Positions 4,150 through 62,525 of a DNA stretch of 64,000 nt are shown piece by piece. A model generated the notes under the pieces. The model was not told where the DNA came from. It was given only the letters and a program-made list of their open reading frames with translations, and did no database searches. The stretch is from contig MCFH01000082.1 of assembly GCA_002104945.1 (NCBI GenBank), positions 120,886 to 184,885 of the forward strand. The letters run 5' to 3'. Positions within the stretch are counted from its first letter, which is position 1. Each line of letters opens with the position of its first letter. The DNA comes from Piromyces finnis finn. Taxonomy: Eukaryota; Fungi; Neocallimastigomycota. A program made the translations under genes and the position numbers.

Positions 4150-4155
4150 TGAAAA

Positions 4156-19551: not shown

Positions 19552-19855
19552 GGACATAAAACCAGAGAGTTATCCATAGGTTGTCCGAAGAACGTAAAAC
19601 CAAGAAGATTAACCATAGGTTGTTAAGAGAACGTAAAACCAAAAAGAGTTATCCATATGTGTTGTCATAAGGACGTAAAATCAAAGGTTAACCATGAGTT
19701 GTTAAGAAAACGTAAAACCAAAGAGGTAAACCATGCGTTGTCATAAGGACGTAAAATCAAAGAGATAAACCATGTGTTGTCTATAATTCTGTGTAAATCT
19801 CAGAGAGATTACCAATATAGTTTATAGGATAATGTAAAACCGGAAGGGTTTTCAA
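19552..19855 (+). repeat. Degenerate ~39-bp minisatellite (about 7-8 units) in the 3' internal region of the LTR element
   Basis: Recurring ACGTAAAA(C/T)CAAA..G.TAACCAT..GTTGT units, contiguous with no unique spacers. Confidence 0.75.
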
Positions 19856-38700: not shown

Positions 38701-39238
38701 TAATTATTATATACATACATTTATTATTTAGTAGGCATCATTTATTTTCATTTACAATAATGGTAAAAATTATGTTACTTCTTGGCTAATGTATATAAAA
38801 AATAATAATATTTTAATGATAAACTTTTGAAAAAAAAAAAAAAAAAAAAAAAAAAAGATAAAAATATTAACTATACAAACATATAGTATTATCAGTATTG
38901 GATTGATTTTATTAAATTCATTGACAGATTTTTAATAAATAATTAAAAGAAATATATCTAATAAATAAATAAAAAAATAATACCATACAATAATAATGTT
39001 GTTAGTTATAACAAAGACATAAAAACTATTAAAAAGTACTGAAAAATGTATATTAAATAATACTTTATATATGAAGTGTTATGAGTTTAAAAGTGGGAAA
39101 TAGTAATAGTAATAGCAATCGGTAAAAGTATAAAAGATCGTTTTTAATATTTCAATTAAAAGAAATTGTTTTTTTTACAAACTTTCCAAAAAAAAAAAAA
39201 AAAAAAGAAAATTTTATTAATTTTTATTATTAAAAAAA

Positions 39239-40221
39239 TGTAAAAGTTTAAGGATAACTAGGTTAGAAAAAAATAATATTTTATTAAAATAATCTTAATT
39301 TGTTTAAAGCGAATAATTGAATGTTTTAGTTATTAAAGTTATTTCTTTGTTAAATAATGTATTAATAAATTTATAAAATAAGATTATTTATTCATAAAAT
39401 TTTTTTAAATATTATTTATTAATAATATTTAATAATAATTGTTAAGTATTATTTATTATTAGTATTAATATTAATAATAATCTTTAGAATTAAACTCATA
39501 AAATATTCTAATCTATTTATACTACTTGTAAATTTATATTTAATAATACTAAAACTTAAACTTAAGCCTTATTCATAATTATTAAATTAAGTATTGTTTA
39601 TAATATTAATAATATTAATTACTATTTAATTATAATATAATTCATTGAATATAATTATAATAGTTATAATCTTTGAATTCAAAGATAATGAAATATCTTA
39701 TTGAAATAATTGTTATAAAATAAAAATAATTAGTTCCGGATAATATTTTTAATTTAATTAAAACATTAATTTTTATCGTTGGGTAAATGATTTATGTTTG
39801 ATACATCAGGATTGATTACTAAATAAACAATTAATCATCAATAACAAAATATCTTTAAATTGGAATATATCGTGAACCAGAAGAGATATCAACCTAATTT
39901 AAGATATATTATTGATATTTTGAGAGTGGCTTTCTAATGAACCCATTTTTATCCAACTCACTCTTATCCAAAAATCGCTATTCGTTGTAGAGTTATAATT
40001 GTTTTTTGTTATTAAATTATGACCTTCAGGGTTAAAGTTATTTATTATAAAGATTCCTATGGGTTAAGGTCATGTTACTTGAATTTTTAATTTTTTTTAT
40101 ATCCTTCAATATTGTTTTATATTTTTTAAAATTTGATAATAATTAATTTTTTTTTATTTTAAAAGGAATTTCAAAATTTCAAGTGATCTTGAGATTGCAG
40201 ATTCCACTATTATCCGTGACA
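39239..40221 (-). mobile_element. Solo LTR, family D (983 bp), TSD AAAAA
   Basis: Termini TGTAAAAG and CCGTGACA; reverse-complement homolog of 55429-56558; AAAAA at 39234-39238 and 40222-40226. Confidence 0.8.
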
Positions 40222-40275
40222 AAAAAACATCATGCATTACGGTCGTTAAAATAAAAATAGTACGTAAAAATTTTA

Positions 40276-41418
40276 TGATGCGTTGACCGATATATTTGTG
40301 AATAATATAATGTTTTTAATAAATAATAAATTCTATATTATAATGATGAAACAATAAATTTAAAATAAAATAAAATATGTTTTATAATTAACAAATAAAT
40401 CACTCAAAACTCGAAAATAAACTCTTATTATGTTTTAAATTAAATCTTTATTATATTTTATAATTTATTTATTATCTGTTTATGGTCTTTTTATTCTCTA
40501 TTTATTGTCCCCCCTTTATAAAGAAGAATTTTATCTTCCTTTTATACATTTTCATTTATTACATGTATTATTATTTTTAACTATTAAATGTTATTATTAC
40601 TATTGTTATTATTTATTAAAATTAAAAGAATAAATTAAAATTATGTCTTAGTATTATAAAATATTATAGAATATTACTTATTTGATTTTCTTATTACTTC
40701 AAAATGTTTAAATTTAGAAAAATTATTATAAATTATCATTGACTATCATTAAATGTATAATACCTTGAATAAAATAATTAAAATTTAAAATTAAAATAAT
40801 ATTAAAATAAAATTAAAATAAAATTAAAATAAAAATTTAACAAAATTAAAATATTAAAAGTATCAATTATTATAAACACTCATTTTATACAGAAACATAA
40901 AAGAGTTCTGTATTTTATCTTTGGAATTGTTATTATTGTTCTATTTCCAGGTTTTAAGTTTATCATTTTAGTAATAATTACTCAATTAGTTATTTTTTTA
41001 ATTTATAAGTTTAAGAGTATTTCTAAAGAACACTTGGATAAACACTAGAATTAATAATTTGATGTATATCATTTTATTTTTAGTTTATTTATTCATTTTT
41101 ATTTATTTATTATTATTTTATTATTTTAGTACATTATTGGATTAAGTCGTTTTATTTTATTTAATAATTTATTTTATTTAATAATTTATTTTATTTAATA
41201 ATTTATTTTATTATTATCACTATTAGGTCGTTTTTACTCAGAATTTATTATATAATAAAGATAATATTATTTATTTAAAGAAAGGGTTATATTTTCATAA
41301 AATTATTATTCATTCATCTTTAAGGGTTATTATTGTTTATTTTTATTATAAGTTACTATGGGTTAAGTCGTGTTTATTCAGCTAGTTTTTATCATGTTTT
41401 TATGTGAGTAGCGTATCA
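40276..41418 (-). mobile_element. Solo LTR, family A, TSD TTTA
   Basis: Reverse complement of 3032-4149 (near-identical over ~850 bp, more diverged at the U5 end); TTTA at 40272-40275 and 41419-41422. Confidence 0.9.
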
Positions 41419-41569
41419 TTTATGATAAATAATAATTATAAATATATTATACATTTGATATTAGTAGAAAATTTTATTATAAAATAATTATTAAATAATT
41501 TTATATAGTTTATTATAAAAATATAATTTACATAAAATCAAATATTTTATAAATTTATATATTTGATTG

Positions 41570-41573
<4 letters not shown>

Positions 41574-41621
<48 letters not shown>

Positions 41622-41755
41622 TTCCGAGTGCATTTCTCCCATCGATCAGAGTTAGCTCCAATGGTGGTTCTTAGAGAAACGTTGGCTCATTCCTATTGCT
41701 AGGTGGTTGTGACCCTCCTGGTCTGTCATACTGTTTCTTCAGCTTCGACGCTCAC
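41574..41755 (-). mobile_element. Short poly(A)-tailed retroposed insert (137-nt body plus ~45-nt poly(A)) with a 13-bp TSD
   Basis: ATTTGATTGGGTT at 41561-41573 and 41756-41768; the uninterrupted LTR B copies have this site once. Confidence 0.88.
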
Positions 41756-42185
41756 ATTTGATTGGGTTAAATTATAAAAATAATTTTTAATATAATAATA
41801 TTTTTTAGTAGAAAATGAGAAGACTTAGATTATTAATAATAAGTTAAATTTTAATAATAGTTAATATAATTAATTAGTGAATACATAATAATATTTAAAA
41901 GACAAAAATAAGTTTTTATATAATAAAAATTATTGTTAAAAAGAGCGTAAGAACAATAAATAAAAGAAAATATAAAAACGAAATTAAACTTGTCTAATTT
42001 GTAATTATTGTGTTAATAATAAATAATATTTTATAGAATAAATCTGGTGTTATTATTCTATATAAATATTATTAAAATAATAAAACTATTAAAATTATAA
42101 AACAAATTAAATATATTAAATAAAACTAGTAGATATTGTTAAAGCTCGTACAATAGCTGTCGAGATAAAACAATATAAGATAACA

Positions 42186-43183
42186 TGTTAAGTTTTTGGA
42201 TTTGGTTATGCGGCCAGGTCAGAATGTTATCAATTATATAGTAAATATGTTTTTTAAGAAATTAAATTTAAATATAAAATAACCCTTTAAACTTCCAAAT
42301 GAGAAATTAATATTTATTCTTTAGAATAACTTTTTTTATAAAATTTTATTTATTTATTAATAATAATATAAATGATAATATATTTAATAACTATATAATT
42401 AAGATTATAACTATAATCTTTACAAAGAATTAAAATCGAATTCAATTCATTCTATTTTATATTCTTTGTTCAGATTATTAAATTGATAAAAATAAAGTAT
42501 TACATGTAATATGTTAATAATATAATAAGATTGTTTGTTTGTTTGTTTGTTTGTTTTGTCATGACATAAAATAAAATAAACATATGATTAATCATTTAAA
42601 CACTTGATCCATTAACCTATTTTATAATAATTAAAATTATTTAATTTATAAATGTTAACCGTTACACCTAAATGGTTTAGTTCTATTTTTAGTAACAGTC
42701 ACTATCATTAATTAAATTAATATAATTAGAATTTCTATTGATATCTTTTTAATTTTCGTCAAGTCATAAGAAATGTCTATGATCCATACTTGATATCATA
42801 TTAATTTTAATTTACTTATTAAAATCTTCGAATGATCATATCTTCCTTAAATGACCTGTTAGAAGGACCGCGATTGTACCAAAATGTAGCTTTTTCCTTA
42901 AGCTTTCTAATAAACCTGGTTTCATAGCCGTATCACTTACAGCCGTAGCGATCGTTTTTGGCGAGTTACACCTTGTTTCGTGTTTGTTTATTTTTGGTTA
43001 AGGGTTATAGTGTATTGATATTAAATTTTTTGAAATCATAACCCTTTCACTGAACCAAAATTTAAAAGGTGACTTTTAAAGGTGTTTTAAAATAATTATT
43101 GGGATTATTTAATTCTAATTATTATGTTTAATTAATTATAGATATTATCTGAATTTGTTTTAAATCCAGTTAATATCTTCACA
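42186..43183 (-). mobile_element. Solo LTR, family E (E0, 998 bp), TSD TAACA
   Basis: Near-identical reverse complement of 56566-57561; TAACA at 42181-42185 and 43184-43188. Confidence 0.93.
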
Positions 43184-43238
43184 TAACAGAAGAAGTAGTT
43201 AAAAAGTTGTAATATAACTACCAATCCGTTATCATTTA

Positions 43239-44903
43239 TGATATAATTTGATAATAATCTTAATTTTGAATTTTACTTCAAAAAGTGATTATTATATTAT
43301 ATCTTTTGTTATAACTATATAAGTTATATTGATTAAGATTTAAAATCGTTTTTATAAAAATTAATAAAATTGTTTTGTTAAAACACTAAATTGTTTTATT
43401 AGAAACACTTGTTTTTCTAATATTTAAATATTTAAAATTTTATTTATTTAAGTATAAAAGTGATTATTAAAATTATAAAATATTAATCTAACTATATAAT
43501 ATTTCTTTATTATTAATAATAATAATGATTAAAATAAGAATATTTACATGTATTTATATTTTCTTTTGAATTTAAACTATTTACATTAAAACAATAAAAT
43601 TAATAACTATTTACAATAAAAGTAATTAGAAATAACAATAAAAGAAATAATTAAAAGTTAAAGAATATAAAAAGTTGTTTATTTTACAATTAATTAAAGT
43701 AATAATAACATGAATTATTATATTTGTTTACTTTTAAAGTGTAATTTACTAACGAAGTTATTAAACATTTAATTTAACAATTAATTTAACAAGAGTTATA
43801 TATTTTGATCTCGATTAATTAAAGTTTATTATTTTTTTTCAATAATCAAAATATATGCAGTGTTTAGGATTAATTTTATTTAAGAATTTTGGTAAAGTAC
43901 TTAATTAAACTATAACTTGTTTTAAGTTACTTTTAGGGTTAACTTAAAAATCAGGTATAATAATAATTTTATATTTATTAATTTCATTATTTATCATTTT
44001 GTAGTAATTATATTGTAATGTATATAATAAATAGTACAATATAATTACTTATTGATAACTCAATATTAAAATTTAATATTAAATTATATGTATATAGAAA
44101 GAAAAAAATAATAAAAAAAATTAAATATAGAATTAAGATTAGAACTTAGCGAGTTTATTATAAGGATTTATAATAAACAACAAAAACACAAATGGGAAGG
44201 AGGATAAGAGTGAGATGTATTAAAATTATGTTTTAATAATATGTTTTTTATTAAAATAGAATTATTTGTTATTTATTATAATTAATTTTTCTTATAATAA
44301 TAACTCTTGAATTTCTAAAGAATTTCAAGAGTGTCTTATTTATATTTTTATTAGAAATTAAGGTTAAATAAATGGGTTCTAATCTTAACAAATTAAATGT
44401 TTAGGAAAAGACTAGAAGAAAAACCTAAACAAGTTTTCGACCAATATTCTAATCATATTAGTCATCGTGTAAATTTTAAGTAAAACCAATTATAATAATC
44501 GGGAAAACCTTAAAATACCGATTTCCTAAAGTAAATCCGTGTTTAGATATAATATGTAAATTAATTAGTAATACACAATTAAATTACAGGATTCTTATAT
44601 ATAAATATTATTTAAAAATCAAATGTATAAAATATTATTTAACTAAATAAATTAAATAAATAAATTAAGTGCATAAAATATTATTTAACTAAATAAATTA
44701 AATAAGTAAATTAAGTGCATAAAATATTATTTAACTAAATAAATTAAATAAATAAATTAAGTGCATAAAATATTATTTAACTAAATAAATTAAATAAATA
44801 AATTAAGTGTATAAAATATTATGTAACTAAATAAATAAATAAATTATTAAACTAATAAGAAATATTAATTATTTAGATTGAAATAATTATTATTTCTTAC
44901 ACA
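43239..44903. mobile_element. Putative solo LTR, family G (1665 bp), TSD TTTA, with an internal 46-bp tandem repeat
   Basis: TG...CA termini flanked by TTTA on both sides; homology to 4156-4810; 46-bp units start at 44627, 44673, 44719, 44765 and 44811. Confidence 0.7.
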
Positions 44904-45868
44904 TTTATGATAACGGATTGGTAGTTATATTACAACTTTTTAACTACTTCTTCTGTTATCTTATATTGTTTTATCTCGACAGCTATTGTACGAGCTTTAA
45001 CAATATCTACTAGTTTTATTAATTTATTTTAAGTTATTTTATAATTTTAATAGTTTTATTATTTTAATAATATTTATATAGAATAATAACACCAGATTTA
45101 TTCTATAAAATATTATTTATTATTAACACAATAATTACAAATTAGACAAGTTTAATTTCGTTTTTATATTTTCTTTTATTTATTGTTCTTACGCTCTTTT
45201 TAACAATAATTTTTATTATATAAAAACTTATTTTTTGTCTTTTAAATATTATTATGTATTCACTAATTAATTATATTAACTATTATTAAAATTTAACTTA
45301 TTATTAATAATCTAAGTCTTCTTATTTTCTACTAAAAAATATTATTATTCTTTATATTAAAAATTATTTTTATAATTTAACCCAATCAAATATATAAATT
45401 TATAAAATATTTGATTTTATGTAAATTATATTTTTATAATAAACTATATAAAATTATTTAATAATTATTTTATAATAAAATTTTCTACTAATATCAAATT
45501 TATAATATATTTATAATTATTATTTATCAAGATTTCCTCCCCTAAGATACGACTTAGTGGTAGCTGATAAAAATATTCATAAATAATAATAAATATATAA
45601 GTTTTTGATATTTTTATACTAAATATTTAAAAATTTAAATTTTTTTTTCTATATATATATATATATGATAAAAATAATATAAAATAAGGTTTATAAAAAA
45701 AATGATGAAAAATTTGAAAATTTTTATTAATAAAATTTTTTTTTCAAAGAGAAATAAAAAAAATGAAGTGAAATTTTGTTAAATGTCGTAGTGTAAATAT
45801 TTTTGTGTTTTTATATATTTTTGTAATGTAATTGTCGTATTATTTGTATATAAATGTTTAATGTGGTT

Positions 45869-47860
45869 TTATCTTTCTTTAAACTTTGAAAATAGATGAA
45901 ATTTTGATTTTAATATGTCGAAATAATGTCGTTTTAAAATTGAAGTTACTGATTTGATATAATCTTTTAGATTGAAAATAATTGAATTTGAAATACTTTC
46001 TTTTACACTTTTTATTATACTGAAATATATATTCTTAAACGAATTATTTGATGAATTTTTGATTATATCATTTTGTTTATTTCGCTTTTTTCTTGATTTT
46101 AATTTCCTGTTAATATTAATATTCAAATGATTATATTTTAGAATTTTACTTTTATTTTTATATATCTTGATTTTGTGGCATTTTTCGTGAATAATTGGCG
46201 TTTTTTCTGCTTCATCACGGCCGACAAGATTTGACTTATTAATTGAAAATTTAATAAGTGAATCGTTTTTAATTCTTTTTGGAAATTTGCTGAAATTTGA
46301 ATGAAAAATGTGATATTTTGGATAAAAATATTTATTTTTAAATTTGAATAAATGTCGAAATTTAATTGAATAAAAAAGTTTGTTTTTATTGTTAAAAGTC
46401 GAATTAAAATTTTGAATTTTGATATTATTATTAAATGAATTAAATTGAGATTCATTAATATTTGATGGATTGAAACAATGAATCATTGAAATATTTGAAA
46501 GATTATTTTTATTTTGTTTAAAATTTGAGGGACGAGCAACCATAATAGGAGATGAATTAGTTTTCATGTAGAGAGAGTCATCATCAGGATCAATGTATAA
46601 TCGGTGATTCTTTTGAGATTGACGACCTAATATAATATCATAACATGAATCTTCATCTTCTAGAATCCAGAATAATGCATAGATTTTTAAATCACCAAAT
46701 TTAAGAGTTAAATTAACAGCTTGATTTGTTGAAATAACTTGTTTGCTAGCTAATTTAAAGAAAGTTCTCTTAAAATGTGTAATATTATGATTTGCTGATA
46801 TTAAATTAAAGAAGGATTTAGTAATAACATTAACATCAGAACCAGTATCTACTAAAACTCGGACAATGTTATTATCAATTGAGCCAATGACAGAAGCAAT
46901 GTTGATTTTATTAATGACATTAATTTCGTTATCTGCTATATTGATAATATCATCATCATTGTCATTATCAGCATCATCATTGTTTTCATTATTTTTATTA
47001 TTATAATTTTCATTAATGATATTAATAAATGAATTAATATCATCATCATTAAGATCCATATTTTGAATGGCGTTTATTTTCCGAACATCATTTGGATCAA
47101 GCTTTAAACCTTTGGCACAAAGTCTTCTGATGATAGGACTGACTGCAAGCAATTGTGCAAAAGAGATACCAGCATTTGTATTATTAAGGGCATCAAAAAT
47201 ATTATATTCTTTATTTTTGCCCAACATGACAATAGAACGTAGGAAGTCATAATAGTTGCTTTTGGGAGACTTTTTGCTATCTATAACTTCTTCTAATTCG
47301 TCCTGTTTACTTGGTATATCTGGACCAATTCTTCTTTTATTTCTGGTTTCTTTATTTTTCATCTTAGCAGAGGAAATATTCTTGCCTGCAATTACCGAGG
47401 GGTCTAAGATGTCTAGGCGGGAAGTAGTGGTATGAAAATTTGAATTTTTCTCATTACGAATTTCTTGCTGTTCTTTCATCTGAGTGGCCTTTGTATGTAT
47501 TGGTAATGGATTTTCTCGAAGTTTCTTTTTCTTCGACTGAGTCACGTGATCCTCATCATCACTTTCATCACTTTCTTCAGAACTTTTTCTCTTGAATGCA
47601 TAAATAAGGTTTTCGATGTCCTTATCATCGACTGTATTTGTCACGTGATCACGTGTAACGTAATCCTTATCATCTTCATTGATTGGATCATCCACCAAAG
47701 GGTTAGAGAATTTTTCTTTAGAATTTGGAAATTTTTTTGTTTTATGGAAATCACGTGTATCATCAACATAGATTTGCTCATTAATGTTGTTGATGTTGTG
47801 GGTTTGGTTATTATCAATTTTGGAGTTAGAAGGGGAAGATTGAGAACTTCCCCCATTTAA
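45869..47860 (-). CDS. Aspartic protease ORF of element B, reached by -1 frameshift
   Basis: Frame is open from the slippery site at ~47860; VLVDTGSDVNVI and YDIILGR retropepsin motifs; basic low-complexity tail with no RT motifs. Confidence 0.8.
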   Translation of the reverse strand, partial: LNGGSSQSSPSNSKIDNNQTHNINNINEQIYVDDTRDFHKTKKFPNSKEKFSNPLVDDPINEDDKDYVTRDHVTNTVDDKDIENLIYAFKRKSSEESDESDDEDHVTQSKKKKLRENPLPIHTKATQMKEQQEIRNEKNSNFHTTTSRLDILDPSVIAGKNISSAKMKNKETRNKRRIGPDIPSKQDELEEVIDSKKSPKSNYYDFLRSIVMLGKNKEYNIFDALNNTNAGISFAQLLAVSPIIRRLCAKGLKLDPNDVRKINAIQNMDLNDDDINSFINIINENYNNKNNENNDDADNDNDDDIINIADNEINVINKINIASVIGSIDNNIVRVLVDTGSDVNVITKSFFNLISANHNITHFKRTFFKLASKQVISTNQAVNLTLKFGDLKIYALFWILEDEDSCYDIILGRQSQKNHRLYIDPDDDSLYMKTNSSPIMVARPSNFKQNKNNLSNISMIHCFNPSNINESQFNSFNNNIKIQNFNSTFNNKNKLFYSIKFRHLFKFKNKYFYPKYHIFHSNFSKFPKRIKNDSLIKFSINKSNLVGRDEAEKTPIIHEKCHKIKIYKNKSKILKYNHLNININRKLKSRKKRNKQNDIIKNSSNNSFKNIYFSIIKSVKESISNSIIFNLKDYIKSVTSILKRHYFDILKSKFHLFSKFKER

Positions 47861-47866
47861 TTTAAA
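47832..47866 (-). promoter_or_regulatory. -1 programmed ribosomal frameshift signal
   Basis: Heptamer U UUA AAU in the gag frame (47866-47860) directly before the gag stop; hairpin GGGGAAG/CTTCCCC (47853-47832) starts 6 nt downstream; protease ORF is in the -1 frame. Confidence 0.75.
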
Positions 47867-48706
47867 TGGTTTTGGGTTTTGAGGAGGGTAGCTATGATTT
47901 TGTTCACATCGGTCATTTCGTTTGGGCAGAAGCGGGCATCATGTCCTTTCTGGTTACAACGGTGGCAGATATGAATTTTCATCTGGGCAAAGCTTTTGGT
48001 CAAAGCATCCAGATCTGATTCTTTAGCTTCTTCTTTAGTAGTCTTTTCATTATCAGTACTACTATTATTTTCGTTATTATTATAAGAGGTTTTATCTTCA
48101 ACTTCTGTTTTTCTCTTATAATAATTATTTTTGTTTTGAGTTCTTTTATTGGGTACATATTCATCATCACTTTCATAAGCAGATAGAAGCTCATCTGCTT
48201 TAATAGCAATGACCATAGCATCCTTTAAAGTTTTTGGTTGTTTGTTAATAAGAGAATTTAATATAGAAGTTCTCCTATTAAAAGCTTTTGTATAAAGAAA
48301 AATAAGTCTTTCTTCAGAAGGCTTGTCCCTTTCTTTAATTTCTTTCAAAAGGTCGTTAAAAGAACGGTTAAATTCTCTAACAGAGCTTTTGTTTACTTTT
48401 ATTTTTTCTAACTTATTTAGGTTTCTATTAGAGGTTTTATCATCCTCAAATAAGTTAGATATTTTATTGATAAATTCATTATAAGATAGGGATCTATCTT
48501 CATAATAAATATCAAAGATCCTTTGAGTTACCGGTAGTAGCAAGCAAAGCAATTCTCTTCTTTTCTTTTTCAGAAAGAGCTAAGTCTTCTAAGATATCTT
48601 CAAGTTCCATTTTCCATCTGAAGAACTTAGTATCTTTCTTGCCAAGAGGGCTTATTTCTTTAGCCATACTAGCGGCTCTTTCAAAATTGTTTTTATTTTC
48701 AGTCAT
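47857..48706 (-). CDS. Gag of element B with CCHC zinc knuckle; split by one frameshift near 48530
   Basis: ORFs 48706-48512 and 48552-47857; CHRCNQKGHDARFC knuckle. Confidence 0.8.
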
Positions 48707-49442
48707 ATTTAGTAAATAAATAAGATAATTATACTAAATATACTAATTAATAGGAATTATTTAAATTTTCGGCTTTCCCACGGGACGACTGAGGTTCTCC
48801 ACCACTTGATAACGGATTGGTAGTTATATTACAACTTTTTAACTACTTCTTCTGTTATCTTATATTGTTTTATCTCGACAGCTATTGTACGAGCTTTAAC
48901 AATATCTACTAGTTTTATTAATTTATTTTAAGTTATTTTATAATTTTAATAGTTTTATTATTTTAATAATATTTATATAGAATAATAACACCAGATTTAT
49001 TCTATAAAATATTATTTATTATTAACACAATAATTACAAATTAGACAAGTTTAATTTCGTTTTTATATTTTCTTTTATTTATTGTTCTTACGCTCTTTTT
49101 AACAATAATTTTTATTATATAAAAACTTATTTTTTGTCTTTTAAATATTATTATGTATTCACTAATTAATTATATTAACTATTATTAAAATTTAACTTAT
49201 TATTAGTAATCTAAGTCTTCTTATTTTCTACTAAAAAATATTATTATTCTTTATATTAAAAATTATTTTTATAATTTAACCCAATCAAATATATAAATTT
49301 ATAAAATATTTGATTTTATGTAAATTATATTTTTATAATAAACTATATAAAATTATTTAATAATTATTTTATAATAAAATTTTCTACTAATATCAAATTT
49401 ATAATATATTTATAATTATTATTTATCATTTAGATCAGTGAA

Positions 49443-49514
49443 GGAGGGTTGGCGCAACGGTAGCGCGTCCGCCTCCAGAGCGGAAGGTTGGGTGTTCGAA
49501 TCACTCACTCTCCA
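49443..49514 (+). tRNA. trnW-CCA: tRNA-Trp (CCA), intronless, copy 1
   Basis: Full cloverleaf: acceptor GGAGGGT/ACTCTCC, D stem GCGC/GCGC, anticodon stem TCCGC/GCGGA with loop CT-CCA-GA, T arm GGGTG-TTCGAAT-CACTC; followed by TTTTT. Confidence 0.96.
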
Positions 49515-50042
49515 TTTTTATATTTTTCATTAGATGATAAAATTATTCTTTAATACCTATTATTATTATTATACTAGTTTAATTAAATATTAATAAAAAA
49601 TACATTTTATTTCCGTTATCTTTTAACAAGTATTATTAATTAGAGTTAACATAGTTCATAATTAAATCCTAGAGTTAACTCTTATACTCAAATAATTATA
49701 ACAAAAGAAAAGTTCACTTTTTAATATTTTCATTTAAAAAAAAAAGAAAGTTCTATTAATTTTTATTATTAAAAAAGGATTGGTTCTAAGAAATTTAATT
49801 TTTTTGAAATTTTATATAAAAAAAAAGAAAAAAGACTTTTTTTTGGTGAAATGAAAACTTTTTTAAATTTCGAAATAAATAAAGAAAAGCAAAAAAAAAA
49901 AAAAAAACGAAAATAAACATTTTATATTTTATTAACTGAAAGCTACTAAACATTAAAGGATAGTGTGATAAATAAAAAAAAAATATTATAAATTTCAATT
50001 TTAATTTCAATATTTGTTATATATAATTTTTTATAAAGTATA

Positions 50043-50807
50043 ATGAAAAAGAAGATTATTTTGATACTATCAACCTATTTATATTTTATGGTATTTTGTC
50101 AATATGGATATACTCGTACAATTAGTGTTGAATCTGATGATATTCCAGCTGAACTTATTTATCGTGGTGAAGCATTTAGTCGCACCATAATTAAAGATTT
50201 TGATTTTAATAATTATAACTCACCTGATGATGATGATGAATATACTTATGTATGTAAAGATGATGATTGCATTTATATACAGCCGAATAGTAGCAAACCT
50301 TTTATTGAAATTGAAGATAAAAATGGTTATCTTCATAGATATATATTTACTTCCTATATAGATGATTATGAAGTAACTATAGCTAATTATATCGAGTCTA
50401 ATATAAATAAAACTATTCATGTTTCTACTGATTGTAAAACAGATAGTCAATGTTTTTCAAATAAATGTATAAACAATAGATGTATAAAGAATTTAGAAGT
50501 TAATATTGAACATTGTGTTTCTTTATATATAAGACCTAGTGCTTTCTATTCATCGTATATAGGATATACTAAATGTGGTCGGATGCCTGGTGAGCCTTGT
50601 ATAAAAAATTCAGATTGCTCTTCCAACAAATGTTACAGAGGAACATGCATAACTAATAACTATACACCTTCTGATAGTGATGGGATAGGTGAGGCATTTT
50701 CAAAACTAGGGTTTATAGCAGCATTAATAAGTATTTTAGTAATTGATTGTTGTTATTGTTGTTACGTAAAACATAATGAAAGATATTATATTAAAGCTAA
50801 TAAATAA
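50043..50807 (+). CDS. Cys-rich single-pass membrane or secreted protein (Dickkopf-N/EB-like Cys modules)
   Basis: Hydrophobic N-terminus; CKTDSQCFSNKCINNRC and GEPCIKNSDCSSNKCYRGTC; C-terminal TM GFIAALISILVI followed by DCCYCCY. Confidence 0.75.
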   Translation: MKKKIILILSTYLYFMVFCQYGYTRTISVESDDIPAELIYRGEAFSRTIIKDFDFNNYNSPDDDDEYTYVCKDDDCIYIQPNSSKPFIEIEDKNGYLHRYIFTSYIDDYEVTIANYIESNINKTIHVSTDCKTDSQCFSNKCINNRCIKNLEVNIEHCVSLYIRPSAFYSSYIGYTKCGRMPGEPCIKNSDCSSNKCYRGTCITNNYTPSDSDGIGEAFSKLGFIAALISILVIDCCYCCYVKHNERYYIKANK

Positions 50808-51230
50808 ATAAAATTTTTACATTTTTTATACTATAATTATTAGTATAATAAAATTCATTTAAAAATATATAAAAATAAGATACTATTAAAGTTTATAAAA
50901 CACTGTATTTTTTAATTGTCAAAAAAAATAGTAAACAAAAAATATTGGTATTTTATAAAAGTTATAATATAAAAGTTTAATATAGCTATATATATTTACT
51001 ATATAAAGTTAATTTTTAATGAGAACTTATTATTACTTTTTTTAAAATAGCAACTATTTTTAAAACCATGTAAAAAAAAAATTAAAAAATTGAAAAGAAG
51101 TAAAAATAGAAATAAAATAAAAATAAAAATTAAAGGATAATGAATAAAAATGTTAGTTTATTATTATTGTTAGTTAAATATTTTTGAATATATTAATTAT
51201 TAATAAATAACATTTATTTAAACTAAATTA

Positions 51231-51270
<40 letters not shown>

Positions 51271-52295
51271 TGTATTATATATATTTCTTAAAATATTTTT
51301 TTAATTATTTATTAAAAATGAAATTGACTATTTATTAACATTTTACTTTAATTTGTTGAGAAGATATTTTGAATTAAATAATATGTTCCCAAAAAGATCT
51401 ATGTATTTAATGACGATTATTAAAAAAAAAAAAAAAAAAAAAAAACATGTACAAGAGTAATTTAAAAGTTTACTATTCAAATGAAAAGTTTGTTATAATT
51501 TCCAATATCTACAGGGAAAATGAGGATTGCTGAATAGTATGTAGTCCGGTTCCCATAAAGGAATTGTTAAAAACATATTCTTAGGTTATTGAAAACGCTA
51601 GCACTGTTACAGGCATGATATAAAAATAATAGGTGACCTAAATCTATTATATTTGTAAATATTAAATGTATATAGTTTTTTATTAAATAGTAATTCCTTA
51701 AATGTAAAATAATGAAATATAAAAGAATAAGGAAGATATATAATCCATATAATTCCAGCCTTATAATTGTACAATTAATCATTATGTAAGCCCTGATAGT
51801 ATAAATAGACTAGAAATAAATATTATAAAAAGGGCTTCTTGTTTTTTGTTAATTTTTAATAAAATAGTTATAAATGACTGGATTATCGTTTTAGCATATA
51901 AACGGAATAATATATTAAAGCGTGATTAATAAAATTATGAACAAAATATATATTATTTAAAGATTCTTTCTACATAAAAATAACTCTTATCATGTCCATT
52001 ATCATATTGATTGAAACACATAACAAAATACTACAATTATATGAAAATAATTGTACATTTATGTATTTATAAATACAAATTAATAATAAAATATAATAAT
52101 AATATATATAAAAAAAAATAATATTATAGATTAATAATAATAATACTAATACTAATACTAATACTAATACTAATAATATAAAATACATTATATACAATAT
52201 TATTACTGTAAAATAAATTTAATTAATAAATAATTTTATTAATAAGGTTAACAAAGAGAAAAAGTTACATTGTAAATTACAGTTATATAATGAGA

Positions 52296-52794
52296 TGTAA
52301 GGTTATGTGATCATAAAAATAAAATAAAAATCTCTATAACACGTAGACATTACGTTTACAACACTTTTAATACATGTTTATGTTTTCATAAGTTAGTCAC
52401 GTAATTAAGACTAAGCCTTAAGTTTAACTTTAGTATTATAAAATATATTATGAATATAATCATGTATTAATAGTTATTTTATTATTAAATGTAAAATTAC
52501 AAATAGTATAAATAATTTAGAATAGTTTTATGAAATTAAATCTTTGTAAAGATTATTATCTTATTAATACTTAATAAGTATTGCTATTAAATAATCTTAT
52601 TATTATATTCTTTAATAATATATTATTTAAATAAAATAAAAGAAATTATTTTAACCATAATACATAATTTAATTATTCATTTATAAAACAATTAAGATTA
52701 TTTTAATAAAACATTTTTTCTAACCTAGTTATCTTTAATCTTTTATTTAATTTAATATTTTAATATTAAATTAAAGTTTAGTAAAACTTTTACA
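52296..52794 (+). mobile_element. Probable D-related solo LTR (499 bp)
   Basis: 3' half matches 56080-56558, including TCTTTGTAAAGATTAT and the end AAAACTTTTACA; candidate TSD TGAGA/TGATA has 1 mismatch, so the left end is uncertain. Confidence 0.5.
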
Positions 52795-53218
52795 TGATAA
52801 TATTTGTATCTAAAAAAATAAGAAAATAAAATAAATGATTTTTATACTTGTTCATTTGCAAGTATTAGTTAATTTTTAAAAATATAAAGTTTATTATATT
52901 TAATTATAAAATTATAATATTATTTAATAACTCTCGTATTATTAAATAATTAAGAATTAATACATATTGTATGCATCATAGAAGTTATATAAAAAAAATA
53001 TTGTTTTATTAAAATAATAACAATTATTAATTAATTATTAAATAATTTAAAGATATATTTTATATCTTTACATCTATTTAGAAATAATAGCTTATTAAAA
53101 TTTAATAAATATTAAAGATATTATAAGTATATATATATAAAAAAATATATATACACCAAACAAAAAAAATATTTATAAATATAAAACTTTATAAATTAAA
53201 ATACTTGTAAAAATATAC

Positions 53219-53600
53219 TAGGTGCGTATAGAGCTCATATACAGCTTCAATGTATAATTAACTAGTTTCAGTTGGTTAGAAACTATAGTTATTAATCACT
53301 GAAGTATTTGTAAAAGTAGGACGAATGTGAATAGCACGCTTACTTGGGGGAAGGGATTGTTAGTGTGATAAAAAGCACGTAATACAGGACTCTCAAGCTG
53401 AATACTTTAACAAACTCTGGCAAATAAGGAACTTTAGTCACCGAAGGCTAAAGGTTTGTTGTGAAGGTAAATCTACATAAAAATATATAGTTTAAATATA
53501 TTTTGAGGTCTAGTATATCACCTCTAGTTAGTAGCTTTTGTCGGCTATTTAAATTGTTGTAAGGCATTAAAAAGCGAAAAATAAATCCTGTAAATAAAGT
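53219..53600. other. Unassigned GC-enriched, hairpin-rich island (possible ncRNA)
   Basis: Several stems (TAACTA-GTTTC/GAAAC-TATAGTTA, CTTTAGTC/GGCTAAAG, GAGGT/ACCTC, TAGC/GCTA) in very AT-rich flanks; no ORF in the track. Confidence 0.35.
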
Positions 53601-54142
53601 TTTATATTTAATTATTTTTTTTAAAGAAAAAGAAATACATATATTATAAAATAATAATTATAATATATAATAAAATTATTTAATTAATATTGTAAATATA
53701 ATCATCGGTCAAATAATAATAAAAATCAAAAGTATTGTTATAAATTTTAAATAATAAAAAGCAATAATATTAAGTTGTCTTTTTTTAGTTAGTTTTTAAC
53801 GAAAAATAACTTTTGTTTATCTTTTCGATTAATTAATTATTAAGATAATTAACCGAAAAGCAAAAAAGAAAAAAGACTTTTTTTTGCTTTTCTTTATTTA
53901 TTTCGAAATTTAAAAAAGTTTTCATTTCACCAAAAAAGTCTTTTTTCTTTTTTTTTTTTTTTAAATGAAAATATTAAAAAGTGAACTTTTCTTTTGTTAT
54001 AATTATTTGAGTATAAGAGTTAACTCTAGGATTTAATTATGAACTATGTTAACTCTAATTAATAATATTTATTAAAAGATAACGGAAATAAAATGTATTT
54101 TTTATTAATATTTAATTAAACTAGTATAATAGGTATTAAAAA

Positions 54143-54214
54143 TGGAGAGTGAGTGATTCGAACACCCAACCTTCCGCTCTGGAGGCGGACGCGCTACCGT
54201 TGCGCCAACCCTCC
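54143..54214 (-). tRNA. trnW-CCA: tRNA-Trp (CCA), copy 2, identical to copy 1
   Basis: Exact reverse complement of 49443-49514; followed by a T-run terminator. Confidence 0.96.
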
Positions 54215-54229
54215 TTTACTGATTTAATT

Positions 54230-54279
54230 TGATACGAAGAAAAATATTAGCTTAATTCTATAAATGAATATAGAAAGTG
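54230..54279 (+). mobile_element. Probable LTR terminus (element H) 16 bp upstream of tRNA-Trp copy 2
   Basis: Begins TGATACG like LTR A; interrupted after 50 bp by the E1/D/E2 stack; the other end is not in the window. Confidence 0.5.
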
Positions 54280-55423
54280 TGTGAAGATATTAACTGGATT
54301 TAAAACAAATTCAGATAATATCTATAATTAATTAAACATAATAATTATAATTAAATAATTTCAATAATTATTTTAAAACACTTTTAAAAGTCACCTTTTA
54401 AATTTTGATTCAGTGAAAGGGTTATGATTTCAAAAATTTAATATCAATACACTATAACCCTTAACCAAAAATAAGCAAGTACGAAATAAGGTGTAACTCG
54501 CCAAAAACGATCGCTACGGCTGTAAGTGCTACGGTGATGAAACTAGGTTTATTGGAAAGCTTAGGAAGAAAGCTACAATTTGGTACAATCGCGGTCCTTC
54601 TAACTGATCATTTAAGGAAGATATGATCATTTAAAGATTTTATTAGGTAAATTAAAATCAATATGATATCAAGTATGGATCATAAATATTTCTTATGACT
54701 TGATGAAATTAAAAATATATCAATAGGAATTTTAGTTATATTAATTTAATTAATGATAACGATTGTTACTAAAAATAGAACTAGACCCATTTAGGTGTAA
54801 CAGTTAACACCTATAAATTAAATAATCTTAATTATTATAAAATAGGTTAACGGCAAGTTTTATTAGAAATAATTTTGAAAATAATAATTATTTAATTATA
54901 ACAAATATGTTATGGTAATATCAATTAATAATGATGAATTATTAATTGAATAGTTTTTATAATTACTAATTAGGATCAACTGTTTAAATGATTAATCATA
55001 TGTTTATTTTATTTTATGTCATGACAAACAAACAAACAAACAAACAAACAAACAAACAATCTTATTACTTATTTAATTATATTACTAATATATTACATGT
55101 AATACTTTATTCTTATTAATATCAATTTAATAATCTGAACAAAGAATATAAAAGAGAATGAATTGAATTCGATTTTAATTCTTTGTAAAGATTATAGTTA
55201 TAATCTTAATTATATAGTTACTTATAATATCATTTATATTATTATTATTAAATAAATAAAAAATTTATAAAAAGTTATTTTAAAGTAAATATAAACTTTT
55301 CAATTTTCATTTGGGAGTTTAAGGTGTTATTTTATAATTAAATTTAATTTCTTAAAAAACATTTTTACTATATAATTAATAACATTCTGACCTGGCCGCA
55401 TAACCAAACCCAAAAACTTAACA
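54280..55423 (+). mobile_element. Solo LTR, family E (E1, 1144 bp), TSD AAGTG
   Basis: TGTGAAG...CTTAACA termini; homologous to E2 and E0; AAGTG at 54275-54279 and 55424-55428. Confidence 0.9.
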
Positions 55424-55428
55424 AAGTG

Positions 55429-56558
55429 TGTCACGAATACTAGTGAAAATACAATTTCAAGATCACTTGGAATTGTGAAATCACTTATGAAAATTCAAAA
55501 TCAACAAATATTTTATTTTCAAATAAATTATAAAATTTTATTAAGAAATATTTAAAAATTTAGAAAAGGTTAAAATATGACCTTAACCCTTAATAATTTT
55601 TATAATAAATAACTTTAACCCTTATCGTTAAAATGGAATAAGGAAAAACACGCGTATCTCCTCAACGAATGACGATTTTTGAATAAAAATGTTTTGGTTA
55701 TAATTACGTTCGTTAGAAAGCCACGCTCGAGACAAACAACATATCTTAAAATCAGGTCAATATCTCTGCTGGTTCACGAGATATTCCAATTTAAAGATAT
55801 TTTGTTAGCAATGATTAATTGTTTATTCAGAGAATGATCACCCCTGATATATCAAACATAAATCATTCACTCAAAGTATAAAAATTATTGTTTAATTAAA
55901 TTAAAATTATTTTCCGGAACTAATTAACTTTATTTTATAATAATTATTTCAATAACATAATTTATAATCTTTGAACTAGAGGATTATAATTATTAATATT
56001 ATATTCAATGAATTATATTATAATTAAGAAATAATTAATATTATGAATATTATAAACAATAGTTATTTTTTAATAATTAGGAATAAGTCTTAAGTTTAGT
56101 TTAAGTATTATAAAATATATTATGAATATAATCATGTATTGAAAAGTTATTTTATTATTAAATGTAAAATTACAAATAGTATAAATAGTTTAGAATAGTT
56201 TATGAAATTAAAATCTTTGTAAAGATTATTAACCAAAAATTATTAACCATAAATTATTAAATTATTAACTATAAATTATTAACTAAAGATTATTAACTAT
56301 AAATTATTAACTATTAATAATAATTAATACTTAATGAGTATTACTACTAAATAATCTTATTATTATATATTTTAGCAATATATCATTAAATAAAATAAAA
56401 GAAATTATTTTAACCATAATATATAATTTAATTATTCATTTATAAATCAATTAAGATTATTTTAATAAAACATTTTTTTTTCTAACCTAGTTATCTTTTA
56501 ACCTTTTATTTAATTTAATATTTTAATATTAAATTATAAGTTTAGTAAAACTTTTACA
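55429..56558 (+). mobile_element. Solo LTR, family D (1130 bp), TSD AAGTG
   Basis: TGTCACG...TTTTACA termini; AAGTG at 55424-55428 and 56559-56563. Confidence 0.88.
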
Positions 56559-57561
56559 AAGTGATTGTGAAGATATTAACTGGATTTAAAACAAATTCAG
56601 ATAATATCTATAATTAATTAAACATAATAATTAGAATTAAATAATCCCAATAATTATTTTAAAACACCTTTAAAAGTCACCTTTTAAATTTTGGTTCAGT
56701 GAAAGGGTTATGATTTCAAAAAATTTAATATCAATACACTATAACCCTTAACCAAAAATAAACAAACACGAAACAAGGTGTAACTCGCCAAAAACGATCG
56801 CTACGGCTGTAAGTGCTACGGTTGTGAAACCAGGTTTATTAGAAAGCTTAAGGGAAAAGCTATATTTTGGTATAATCGCGGTCCTTCTAACTGGTCATTT
56901 AAGGAAGATATGATCATTTGAAGATTTTAATAAGTAAATTAAAATTAATATGATATCAAGTATGGATCATAGACATTTCTTATGACTTGACGAAAATTAA
57001 AAAGATATCAATAGAAATTCTAATTATATTAATTTAATTAATGATAGTGACTGTTACTAAAAATAGAACTAAACCATTTAGGTGTAACGGTTAACATTTA
57101 TAAATTAAATAATTTTAATTATTATAAAATAGGTTAATGGATCAAGTGTTTAAATGATTAATCATATGTTTATTTTATTTTATGTCATGACAAAACAAAC
57201 AAACAAACAAACAAACAATCTTATTATATTATTAACATATTACATGTAATACTTTATTTTTATCAATTTAATAATCTGAACAAAGAATATAAAATAGAAT
57301 GAATTGAATTCGATTTTAATTCTTTGTAAAGATTATAGTTATAATCTTAATTATATAGTTATTAAATATATTATCATTTATATTATTATTAATAAATAAA
57401 TAAAATTTTATAAAAAAGTTATTCTAAAGAATAAATATTAATTTCTCATTTGGAAGTTTAAAGGGTTATTTTATATTTAAATTTAATTTCTTAAAAACAT
57501 ATTTACTATATAATTGATAACATTCTGACCTGGCCGCATAACCAAATCCAAAAACTTAACA

Positions 57562-57572
57562 ATAATCTTTAC
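57562..57572 (+). promoter_or_regulatory. Self-priming primer binding site (11 nt)
   Basis: ATAATCTTTAC directly after the LTR is the exact reverse complement of GTAAAGATTAT at 57326-57336, which lies ~35 nt downstream of a TATAAAA. Confidence 0.8.
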
Positions 57573-58712
57573 CCGCTGTTTAGTGGCTACTTTAGAATGT
57601 TCACTCCAGTTCCTAACTTCCCAGACGAGGTAAACCAACTTAGAGAGGATGCTACTCAGACTGCCAAAGATATCATTGAGGGTATCAATGAAAATTTGGT
57701 TTTCCGTGAAGATTTTCAAAATTTTTCCAATGATGTGAACAATCGTTTAAATGAAATCATGGGAGTATTAACCAGTATGAATAATAGTCAAGTTACTCAG
57801 AATGAAGATGAACATCCATTGTTACATACCAACTATGATAGGATAGCTACTCCAAGACCTACTGCCTTTAGAGATGATGAATCTACTTCAACAAGATTTG
57901 ACTTAGATCATGATGTTATCATGAGAGGTCGTTTTGCTACTCCAATTACTCAAGTCCCAGATCCAGGTATGTTTTCCGGTAAGACTAGTGAGACCGATCT
58001 ATTTGCCAATTATGTGAAGATACTTTTAAAACTCTACCAAATCGATCTTTACCAGAAGAAACAAAAATTAATTTTGTACAATCCCGTCTTCGTGATGCTG
58101 CTAGAAATTGGTATCTTGCCAAGTACAAGGATAATATTTATCCAGCTACCATGCAAGAATTATTGGATGGATTAAGAATTGCTTTCTCCAATGTTGCTAG
58201 TTACAAGATAGCTAAAATCAAAATAATGCGTTTAAAACAACAATATGGTAAAATAAATGATTATATCGAAGAATTCCGCTCTCTTTCACAACAATTTAAA
58301 TGGAATGAAGAAGCATTATCTTTAATCTTTTACAATGGGTTACATCCAAAATATCAGGAAGAAATTGAAAAGATGGAGGTATTTCCAACCACTATGGAGT
58401 CCATTATAACTAGATGTATTTTGATTGAAAGTTCTCTTTCTACAAAGAATAAGATTACCCAGTCTTCCAGTTCCAAATCTAACAAGAAAAGAAATTCACA
58501 TTTCAACCACCACAGACCATACAACAACAATAACAATAACAATAACAATAACAATAGCAATAACTTCCAAAAACATAATAATAATTACTATAACAACAAT
58601 TATAAGGCTCAAAAAATTAGTTCAAAAAACTAAATAAAGGACTTCCATTGAAGTCCCATCACCACTCGAATATAAAAATATTAAACTACACTTTTCCCAC
58701 TATCAATAAAGA

Positions 58713-59331
58713 TGTAAAGATATCAAACGCCACAGATTGATATCTTTAATGTAACTTAAGCCATAAATATCATTGTTTAAGTTACACGAATTATATTACA
58801 GAAAAAGAAAATGGGACATAATTTATTTATTAATAATTAAAGTTTAAAACAAAATAAATTATTAGTTTATTCTTAATGTTTAACAAATAAATTAAAATTC
58901 TCAATTCAAACCCCTAGTTTTAGTATTGTTTTGTAATAGAAATAGACATCTAGTATATAATTATTAAATGTTTAATATATCAATAATACATGGGCACATA
59001 TTCAAATTGAATAGTACTTAATTTGAATTGCCAATTGTATTTTACTAAAAATAGTTATAGTTTGAATATTTGAATATTTATTAATAATTAAGATTTTAGT
59101 GTAGATTTTAAATAATAATATATAAGAAATAAATAGTTATAATATAATATAAATGTATTTAGGAAAAATATAAATAGAAGATATTTTTCATCATTTTATC
59201 GATGTAATTGTTATTAATATAATTTCTATTATAATAAAAGATATTTTTTTAACAAAACAATTTTATATAAATCTTTAGTGTTATTGTAATAGAATAGATA
59301 TCCTAATCTATTCTTTTGTGTCGACTTTACA
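58713..59331. mobile_element. Solo LTR (619 bp) nested between gag and protease, TSD AAAGA
   Basis: TGTAAAG...CTTTACA termini; AAAGA at 58708-58712 and 59332-59336. Confidence 0.8.
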
Positions 59332-61799: not shown

Positions 61800-62525
61800 T
61801 GTAAAGATATAATATATATCTTTAAATTATTTAATAATTAATTAATAATTATTAAATATAATTTTGATATTTTAATGAAAAATTATTTATAAAATTTATT
61901 ATATAAATTTAAGGAATAATTAAATAAATATTAATTTTAAAATATCAAAATTGGAAATGAAATTTGGATAAATATTTAAATTAATGGATAATTAAATTTA
62001 AAATATTTTAAATATTCAAATTAAATCTTAAAAAGTTCTTATTTAATTTAAAAATAGTTTAATAACTTTAGCGTAGTTTTAAATTAGTATTTTTAATAGT
62101 AAATATATTATAATAGTATTATTAATATTTAATTAATATATAGGTAATACATGGACTGTATTCAATTTGTAGTTTATCAAATTGAATCAAAAAGTGTATT
62201 TAATTAGTTTTAGTTTAGTTTTATTATTTTATTATTTAATTAAATTAGTATTAAATTAGTTTTGTTTATTTTATATTGAATATATGTATAATTAAATAGA
62301 ATAGTATATTAAAATATAATTTGTAAAAAATATAAATACATGTAAAATTTCATAGTTAAACGATGTAATTGTTATTAACTATAGTTTAGTTAATAACTAA
62401 ATAAGAATAAATAAAAGAGGATATAAATAAATTTTGTTTTGTTTTTAATTTTTTATTTTAATTTAGTGTTTTTGTTTTTTTGTAAAAAATTTTTATAATC
62501 TGTTTTAAATTTTAAAATTTTTACA
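61800..62525. mobile_element. Solo LTR (726 bp) nested in the integrase zinc finger, TSD CTCTG
   Basis: TGTAAAG...TTTTACA termini; CTCTG at 61795-61799 and 62526-62530; removal restores HEQPSAGHLGIKRT. Confidence 0.88.

What the first reader, a model, noticed from the sequence alone, without database searches (positions are those of the whole stretch)
39234..56565. Second targeting window: chromovirus-type LTRs at -60..-67 of tRNA genes, sequence-independent and in one orientation
Seen, after removing later insertions: solo D TSD AAAAA at -64..-60 of tRNA1 (native flank); solo E0 TSD TAACA at -65..-61 (inside LTR B when B abutted the tRNA); E1 and D TSD AAGTG at -61..-65 of tRNA2 (inside H); E2 left flank GTGAT at -63..-67. 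These are three unrelated target sequences at the same distance. All five have their 5' end (oriented by the shared GTAAAGATTAT motif and gag position) facing the tRNA. Known: Dictyostelium TRE5-A inserts orientation-specifically ~50 bp upstream of tRNA genes, and yeast Ty1 targets nucleosomes further upstream. Inference: a ruler-like tethering mechanism, separate from the -11..-15 class, used by self-priming chromoviruses whose relative Tf1 targets Pol II promoters.
Basis: partly seen in the sequence, partly recalled or inferred. Interest (0 to 1): 0.88.

Follow-up and report, generated by a model that had tools for sequence, protein, structure and literature searches.

The report
Retrotransposons landing 60 bases before tRNAs
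In what is likely a gut fungus, two related jumping-gene families sit about 60-67 bases in front of transfer-RNA genes, always facing the same way and on unrelated target sequences, likely because they dock on the host's tRNA-transcription machinery; a similar landing distance is already known from amoebae, so this is a new combination of known habits.

Summary
The coordinates hold. Five of six D/E LTRs in the window have target duplications whose tRNA-proximal edges lie at -60, -61, -61, -61 and -63 from two tRNA-Trp genes, 5' ends facing the tRNA; E1 needs no reconstruction. Public contigs add one D junction 1 bp further out in an H copy and four head-to-tail LTR junctions with 5-letter spacers. 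E belongs to a gut-fungal clade with covarying self-priming signals and a diverged C-terminal domain predicted to fold as a chromodomain; a separate tRNA-primed, 4-bp-duplication class stacks at -14..-11. Best reading: the integration complex is tethered to the Pol III initiation complex and cuts between TFIIIB and the first nucleosome (inferred). Novelty is lower than claimed: D. lacteum DGLT-A LTR elements lie at -63/-64, Tj1 is a self-priming chromovirus that targets tRNA genes in one orientation, and Ty3's chromodomain is a published ruler. No genome was held, so the genome-wide peak is untested. New variant of a known kind; interest 0.5.

The parts
39239..40221 (-). D1, solo LTR of family D; 5-bp duplication AAAAA at 39234-39238 and 40222-40226 (-64..-60 of tRNA1 in the native flank)
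   Evidence: 83.5% to D2 over aligned columns
40222..40275 (.). native upstream flank of tRNA1, displaced by later inserts; ends in TTTA (-14..-11)
40276..41418 (-). C, solo LTR of the proximal class (4-bp TTTA duplication); a relative is the 3' LTR at 3032-4149 of an element whose integrase ends without a chromodomain
41423..43234 (+). solo LTR B (proximal class), interrupted by a poly(A)-tailed retrocopy (about 41574-41756) and by E0; opposite in orientation to the B element at 44908
42186..43183 (-). E0, solo LTR of family E; duplication TAACA at 42181-42185 and 43184-43188 (-65..-61 when B abutted tRNA1)
   Evidence: 99.2% to the E2 LTR
43239..44903 (.). G, TG...CA LTR of the proximal class between TTTA copies
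44908..49428 (-). B element with two LTRs differing at 1 of 622 sites, gag and protease; TGG-type (tRNA) primer-binding site; youngest proximal insert
49443..49514 (+). tRNA-Trp(CCA) gene 1
52296..52794 (+). D3, D-type LTR 3' half (match from 52402; left end uncertain, candidate TGAGA/TGATA duplication with one mismatch); no Pol III gene at its 5' side: the exception
54143..54214 (-). tRNA-Trp(CCA) gene 2
54230..54279 (.). H, start of a repeat beginning TGATACG at -16 of tRNA2, read as a proximal-class LTR; its remainder is outside the window
   Evidence: contig depth far above that of the tRNA bins
54280..55423 (+). E1, solo LTR of family E; duplication AAGTG at 54275-54279 (-61..-65, measured directly) and 55424-55428
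55429..56558 (+). D2, solo LTR of family D at the same AAGTG site (third copy 56559-56563)
56566..57561 (+). 5' LTR of element E2; left flank GTGAT (-63..-67); self-primer at 57326-57336
57562..57572 (+). primer-binding site, exact reverse complement of 57326-57336, flanked by a covarying U5 duplex
57598..63781 (+). E2 gag and pol (protease, RT, RNase H, integrase, SH3-like domain, diverged chromodomain at about 63620-63781), broken by frameshifts and by two LTRs of another family (58713-59331, 61801-62523)

Best explanation
D and E are LTR retrotransposons of one gut-fungal chromovirus clade that insert in a narrow window 60-67 bp upstream of tRNA genes with their 5' end toward the tRNA, likely because their integration complex is tethered to the Pol III initiation complex, probably the upstream face of TFIIIB, with the diverged chromodomain as the predicted spacer. 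Shown: distances, duplications, orientation, reuse of one site, self-priming signals, clade. Predicted: chromodomain fold. [quoted passage not shown]
For: Proximal edges -60, -61, -61, -61, -63 on four different 5-mers, in three unrelated host sequences (native flank, LTR B, repeat H) at two genes. E1 is at -61..-65 with nothing removed. Three AAGTG copies show two families using one site. Run X1 shows another H copy with D starting 1 bp further out in the same orientation (1 of 10 joints listed) and D-end/D-start or E-end/E-start junctions with spacers TTTTA, ATAAT, AATAA, TAACC. Uniform null 2 of 2,000,000. Divergences fit the order needed for E0: solo B vs B 6 of 612 sites, E0 vs E2 8 of 996, B LTR pair 1 of 622. 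The clade's tail is predicted as three strands plus helices (pLDDT 82.6), and the nine best structural matches are chromo or chromoshadow domains (Z 7.0-7.7); it aligns with the sister clade's canonical chromodomain with the first and third cage aromatics changed. Precedents: Ty3 chromodomain as ruler on Brf1; TRE5-A head-to-head at about -47, tandem-forming, binds TBP in vitro; yeast TFIIIB near -30 and nucleosome edge at -70 from the start site.
Against: No binding was tested and no host TFIIIB sequence was in hand. One of six D/E LTRs (D3) does not fit. A joint places an E start 65-66 nt inside another E 5' end, which a single ruler does not explain. Five of the 42 rows of the clade end before the chromodomain, and D. 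lacteum DGLT-A reaches -63/-64 while classed as lacking one, so the domain may not be the spacer. Structural scores are under the tool's Z 8 caution and Foldseek gave no E <= 0.001. The two tRNA genes are copies of one duplicated segment, so only one isotype was sampled. Pairwise divergence between separate copies is not an insertion date, and G could not be dated.
Confidence: 0.6

Rival explanations
1. Chromatin gap rather than a rigid tether: the elements are drawn loosely to Pol III genes (as Ty1 is) and cut at the edge of the positioned -1 nucleosome or in the short naked linker beside it; the distance comes from host chromatin geometry.
For: In yeast the upstream nucleosome edge is at -70 from the start site (PMC3698015) and Ty1 uses nucleosomal sites about 70-80 bp apart (PMC3545840). 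The E-in-E joint 65-66 nt further out could be a second periodic site near -130. Unrelated elements converge on -47 to -65.
Against: Spread of about 1 bp (SD 1.1 for four first hits) and one orientation in 5 of 5 window cases; Ty1 spreads over about 1 kb in both orientations. No D/E LTR was found deeper inside C, B or G.
Confidence: 0.25
2. Self-stacking: D/E insert beside the 5' end of an existing D/E LTR or at a set offset from any LTR end, and the tRNA is a bystander.
For: Explains E1 and D2 and the four head-to-tail junctions in X1. Offsets from the ends of B and H are alike: 47-51, 46-50, 48-52 nt.
Against: D1 lies in native flank, on the outer side of C, and E0 has no D/E neighbour. B and H share no sequence at the site, and their ends are themselves fixed by the tRNA.
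Confidence: 0.08
3. Chance in a transposon-rich patch, helped by a free choice of insertion order, or an assembly artefact.
For: Only three independent first hits in the window; the order is reconstructed; D3 is off pattern; E2's second duplication is unseen.
Against: Null of 2-12 in 2,000,000 that already allows any order and any band; exact duplications at four of five LTRs; E1 is measured directly; related junctions stand in short-read contigs.
Confidence: 0.04

Closest known systems
DGLT-A.1 and DGLT-A.2 of Dictyostelium lacteum (Spaller et al. 2016, PMC5006619 Table 1)
   Same: Ty3/gypsy LTR elements 63-64 bp (4 copies) and 55-65 bp (2 copies) upstream of tRNA genes.
   Different: Classed as lacking a chromodomain; amoebozoan host; orientation is not given in the sections read and the distance is not discussed there. 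D/E are self-priming, carry a diverged chromodomain and share their tRNA genes with a -14..-11 class.
Tj1 of Schizosaccharomyces japonicus (Guo et al. 2015, PMC4600332)
   Same: Self-priming Tf1/sushi chromovirus with a stop codon after gag that targets tRNA genes in one orientation.
   Different: Tj1 lands at -5..-11 and in the same sense as the tRNA; D/E land at -60..-67 and point away from it.
Ty3 of Saccharomyces cerevisiae
   Same: Best PDB sequence match of a clade member (7q5b, E 3.7e-139); a non-canonical integrase chromodomain touches Brf1 and acts as a ruler. The window's B/C/G/H class resembles it in position.
   Different: Inserts at the start site, downstream of TFIIIB, in both orientations; tRNA-primed (recalled).
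TRE5-A of D. discoideum and NLTR-B of P. pallidum
   Same: Upstream window (about -47; -39..-64); for TRE5-A, 5' end always facing the tRNA, tandem stacking, ORF1 binds TBP in vitro.
   Different: Non-LTR elements using target-primed reverse transcription; wider spread.
Skipper-2 of dictyostelids
   Same: Chromovirus whose chromodomain lost the first and third cage aromatics and that moved to tRNA genes.
   Different: Inserts downstream of tRNA genes; no self-primer complement was found in its LTR by those authors.

Membership tests
Ty3/gypsy (Metaviridae) LTR retrotransposon | TG...CA LTRs with a short target duplication | tested here: met
   D1, E0, E1, D2 on both sides; E2 left side only
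Ty3/gypsy (Metaviridae) LTR retrotransposon | gag, then PR-RT-RNase H-integrase order with GPY/F motif | tested here: met
   E2; for D no internal region beyond the primer-binding site was seen
Chromovirus | chromodomain at the integrase C-terminus | tested here: met
   No Pfam PF00385 hit in 44 of 44 closest relatives or in the window tail, but the tail aligns weakly with the sister clade's canonical domain (hhalign probability 33, E 5e-4) and is predicted to fold as one: met as a diverged domain
Group I (canonical, methyl-lysine-reading) chromodomain | three aromatic cage residues | tested here: not met
   first and third positions are non-aromatic in the profile alignment; same pattern as described for group II and Skipper-2
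Tf1/sushi group | [quoted passage not shown] | tested here: met
   exact 10-11-nt complement inside the LTR in 9 of 13 sequences examined, with a compensatory change in L012 and a matched extra base in the window; the RNA start itself was not mapped
Tf1/sushi group | duplexes flanking the primer-binding site (pretzel structure) | tested here: met
   U5/leader duplex: 11 of 15 predicted pairs show a change on both sides in 10 sequences; 7 of 10 beat all but 3 or fewer of 300 shuffles, L007 fails; the second flanking duplex was not tested
Tf1/sushi group | RT-IN phylogeny grouping with Tf1, sushi, Tj1 | not tested
   no named Tf1/sushi sequence came from any call; the tree holds unnamed relatives only
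Pol III-targeted retrotransposons (Ty3, Tj1, DGLT-A, TRE5) | several copies at a similar distance from tRNA genes | tested here: met
   5 of 6 window copies plus one contig junction; two tRNA genes of one isotype only
Pol III-targeted retrotransposons (Ty3, Tj1, DGLT-A, TRE5) | genome-wide enrichment at Pol III genes | tested here: inconclusive
   no genome held; contig layings list only a few junctions; related loci are collapsed and lack 5' flanks
Pol III-targeted retrotransposons (Ty3, Tj1, DGLT-A, TRE5) | dependence on A/B boxes and contact with TFIIIB, TFIIIC or Pol III | not testable with these tools
   needs a transposition assay or binding data

The most novel reading that the evidence does not exclude
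The two classes cut at mirror positions about 25 bp on either side of the TBP site (centres near -13 and -63.5, midpoint -38 from the mature tRNA, about -28 from the inferred start site): a fungal chromovirus clade has turned its chromodomain into a ruler for the upstream face of TFIIIB, the mirror image of Ty3, giving orientation-fixed integration to within about 1 bp across a whole clade of gut-fungal elements.
Probability: 0.3. Interest if true: 0.75.

Novelty: new variant of a known kind. Interest (0 to 1): 0.5.

Why it matters
It would add an independent origin of tRNA-gene targeting in an early-diverging fungal lineage and show two retrotransposon lineages dividing one promoter between them, one on each side of TFIIIB. 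With close relatives that differ in the chromodomain (canonical, diverged, absent), the open question of whether diverged retrotransposon chromodomains redirect integration becomes testable by comparison. A precise safe-harbour integrase would also be useful for anaerobic gut fungi, whose LTR elements a 2026 review calls largely uncharacterised (PMC13728883).

Tried and rejected
No whole genome was held. Exact search for the E LTR start found 0 stretches in viral contigs and 0 in metagenome contigs; the Pol alignment found no relative in viral contigs. The 12 E-clade loci (L001-L012) are collapsed assemblies with no tRNA gene and no 5' flank. Four MAGs that hold stray fungal contigs gave only short AT-rich matches and one sister-clade element. 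In one search none of the 10 listed joints linked tRNA-Trp directly to a D or E start; the tool filters records, so this says nothing either way. Contig depth was not used as copy number. The spacer ATAAT equals the first five bases of the primer-binding site and may not be a target duplication. No degenerate Pol III gene was found left of D3 or in 1-9200. LTRs with A/B-box-like motifs (window 379-897; L022, L031, L033, L035) showed no D/E insert at -65. The two LTRs nested in E2 are another family, not counter-examples. The careful tree did not finish; the quick tree used 110 of 121 rows, those covering more than 220 aa of the query, and has no named reference. Plain MFE folding cannot show the primer duplex, which would be a pseudoknot. 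No complex was predicted, as no host TFIIIB subunit was in hand.
Full report
Host and layout. The window is 22% G+C and encodes a GH45 enzyme with three CBM10 modules; the named relatives of the E polyprotein carry gut-fungal source labels. I infer an anaerobic gut fungus. No genome was held. There are two identical tRNA-Trp genes, 49443-49514 (+) and 54143-54214 (-), inside a duplicated segment.

Observation. Upstream of tRNA1 four inserts (C, solo B, G, B element) are separated by five TTTA copies, the last at -14..-11. Removing them puts D1's AAAAA duplication at -64..-60. E0 lies 47-51 nt inside the 3' end of solo B, with TAACA on both sides, which is -65..-61 if B abutted the tRNA. Upstream of tRNA2 a repeat H starts at -16; E1 and D2 follow, bounded by three AAGTG copies, the first at -61..-65 with nothing removed; E2 starts two bases further (left flank GTGAT, -63..-67). 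E2's 3' LTR was not found before 64000, so its duplication is unverified. E2's genes run on +, so its 5' end faces the tRNA; E0 and E1 match it. D's orientation is confirmed apart from the shared motif: a contig continues from the D end into the same primer-binding site as E. The two B inserts lie in opposite orientations, so the proximal class is not orientation-fixed here. A sixth D-type LTR, D3, is downstream of both tRNAs and has no Pol III gene at its 5' side; the count is 5 of 6. No further D/E copy was found in the first 39 kb.

Chance. I simulated uniform insertion over the tRNA-flanking arrays, counting any earlier stage at which a segment could have abutted the tRNA and letting the 4-nt band fall anywhere: 2 of 2,000,000 draws for three of three, 12 for three of four, 0 for five of six. 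This tests only a uniform null. The order needed for E0 fits the divergences (solo B 6 of 612, E0/E2 8 of 996, B LTR pair 1 of 622), which are not true insertion dates.

Other loci. Six runs hold the stretch or part of it; the best may be the window's own sample, so it gives other loci, not another organism. Contigs of X1 show D-end/D-start junctions with spacers TTTTA, ATAAT and AATAA and an E-end/E-start junction with TAACC, as expected if one site is used again in one orientation; ATAAT is doubtful. Of 10 joints listed, one is an H copy with D starting one base further out (-62..-66 if that H has the same spacing), and one places an E start 65-66 nt inside another E 5' end, which I cannot explain. 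A genome-wide distribution could not be obtained.

What the elements are. E2 has gag, protease, RT, RNase H, integrase and an SH3-like domain and is broken by frameshifts and two nested LTRs of another family. It falls in a clade of 42 rows with SH-aLRT 99 in a quick tree of 110 rows: 31 with a conserved diverged tail, 5 ending before it, 6 truncated. None of the 44 closest proteins has a Pfam Chromo hit, but the tail aligns with the canonical chromodomain of a sister clade with the first and third cage aromatics changed (weak scores), and a model from 13 aligned tails (pLDDT 82.6) matches chromo and chromoshadow domains in the nine best rows (Z 7.0-7.7; Foldseek top rows likewise, none at E <= 0.001). 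The bases after the 5' LTR are the exact reverse complement of 10-11 bases inside the LTR in 9 of 13 sequences, with a compensatory change in L012. U5 pairs with the leader after this site, 11 of 15 pairs changing on both sides in the 10 sequences that had the site and enough upstream sequence; own pairs average -17.4 against -10.5 kcal/mol for 90 cross pairs, and L007 fails. These are the marks of Tf1-type self-priming; kinship with Tf1 by tree was not tested. The B element has a TGG-type site, and the C relative's integrase ends without a chromodomain, so the two windows are used by different lineages, with 4-bp and 5-bp duplications.

Mechanism. Shown: position, orientation, site reuse, lack of a target consensus. 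Inferred: if the proximal class marks the start site as Ty3 does (1-4 bp upstream of it), the start is near -10 and D/E cut 50-55 bp upstream of it. In yeast TFIIIB binds near -30 and the first nucleosome ends at -70 from the start; in the Ty3 structure TFIIIB binds -15 to -32. The D/E site thus lies between the two, and the two windows are 50.5 bp apart with their midpoint near the TBP position. A spread of about 1 bp and a fixed orientation favour a protein tether (0.6) over a chromatin gap (0.25), self-stacking (0.08) or chance (0.04). The chromodomain is the natural candidate spacer because Ty3's plays that role, but this step is the weakest.

Comparison with what is known. Tj1 already joins self-priming, a chromodomain, tRNA targeting and one orientation, at -5..-11 and in the tRNA's sense (PMC4600332; parts 1-2 of 4 read). 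D. lacteum DGLT-A.1 and A.2 are LTR elements at 63-64 and 55-65 bp (PMC5006619; passages, section 6 part 1 with Table 1, section 11 and a term search of one supplement whose figures are pictures). TRE5-A is head-to-head at about -47 and stacks in tandem (PMC5391098, passages). Skipper-2 has the same cage loss but lands downstream. Also seen as passages only: PMC5911963, PMC6101501, PMC3698015, the preprints 10.1101/2021.07.27.453949 and 10.1101/2022.12.06.519325, PMC13728883, PMC12786077; PMC3545840 part 1 of 2. Ten library searches listed no paper on tRNA targeting in anaerobic gut fungi, nor on a self-priming chromovirus at this distance; most subscription papers are not searched, preprint supplements are closed, and Navaratna et al. 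2024 on gut-fungal LTR elements is not held and may bear on this.

Earlier notes of this scan. One unreviewed note on another gut-fungal genome gives 22-23 and 73 bases from the A box, which equals about -15 and -65; two notes describe LINEs 55-75 bases upstream of tRNA genes in a smut fungus. They are leads, not support.

Verdict. A real and unusually precise second window, used by a self-priming clade with a diverged chromodomain, beside a Ty3-like window at the same genes. Each trait has a precedent; the combination and the host appear new within the searches named. New variant of a known kind, interest 0.5.

Noticed in passing
window 379-897; L022:6040-6111, L031:640-900, L033:5287-5380, L035:3387-3480: LTRs next to or belonging to canonical-chromodomain elements carry an A-box-like motif and a B box near their 5' end (window 412 and 450). 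In L022 another LTR ends 18 nt before the A-box-like motif.
   Followed up: partly
window 53210-53590 and L033:322-700: A non-coding, G+C-richer stretch between D3 and tRNA2 is 80% identical over 382 bp to a locus from another sample; it holds a short hairpin; no Rfam match. Could be a non-autonomous element or a structured RNA.
   Followed up: no
window 41574-41756: A poly(A)-tailed retrocopy of about 180 bp with a 13-14-bp duplication inside solo LTR B; no Rfam match.
   Followed up: partly
window 54344/54280 and 56630/56566 (joint in run X1): An E start 65-66 nt inside another E 5' end: a possible second site near -130, or a local duplication.
   Followed up: no
window 3032-4760: A C-family 3' LTR is followed directly by a G-like LTR, like the stacks at tRNA1, but no tRNA lies nearby; a LINE-like endonuclease frame follows at 5211-7721.
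   Followed up: partly
window 58713-59331 and 61801-62523: Two solo LTRs of one further family, with duplications AAAGA and CTCTG, nested inside E2.
   Followed up: partly
L080-L083, L085: Bacterial and archaeal MAGs from gut samples contain AT-rich retrotransposon contigs of this kind, likely mis-binned fungal repeats.
   Followed up: partly
window 32353-35775: A 1140-aa frame made of near-identical 159-aa tandem units (477-bp period), with no clear Pfam family.
   Followed up: no
window 15685-20370: Another LTR element with 218-bp LTRs 99.5% identical, not near a tRNA gene.
   Followed up: no
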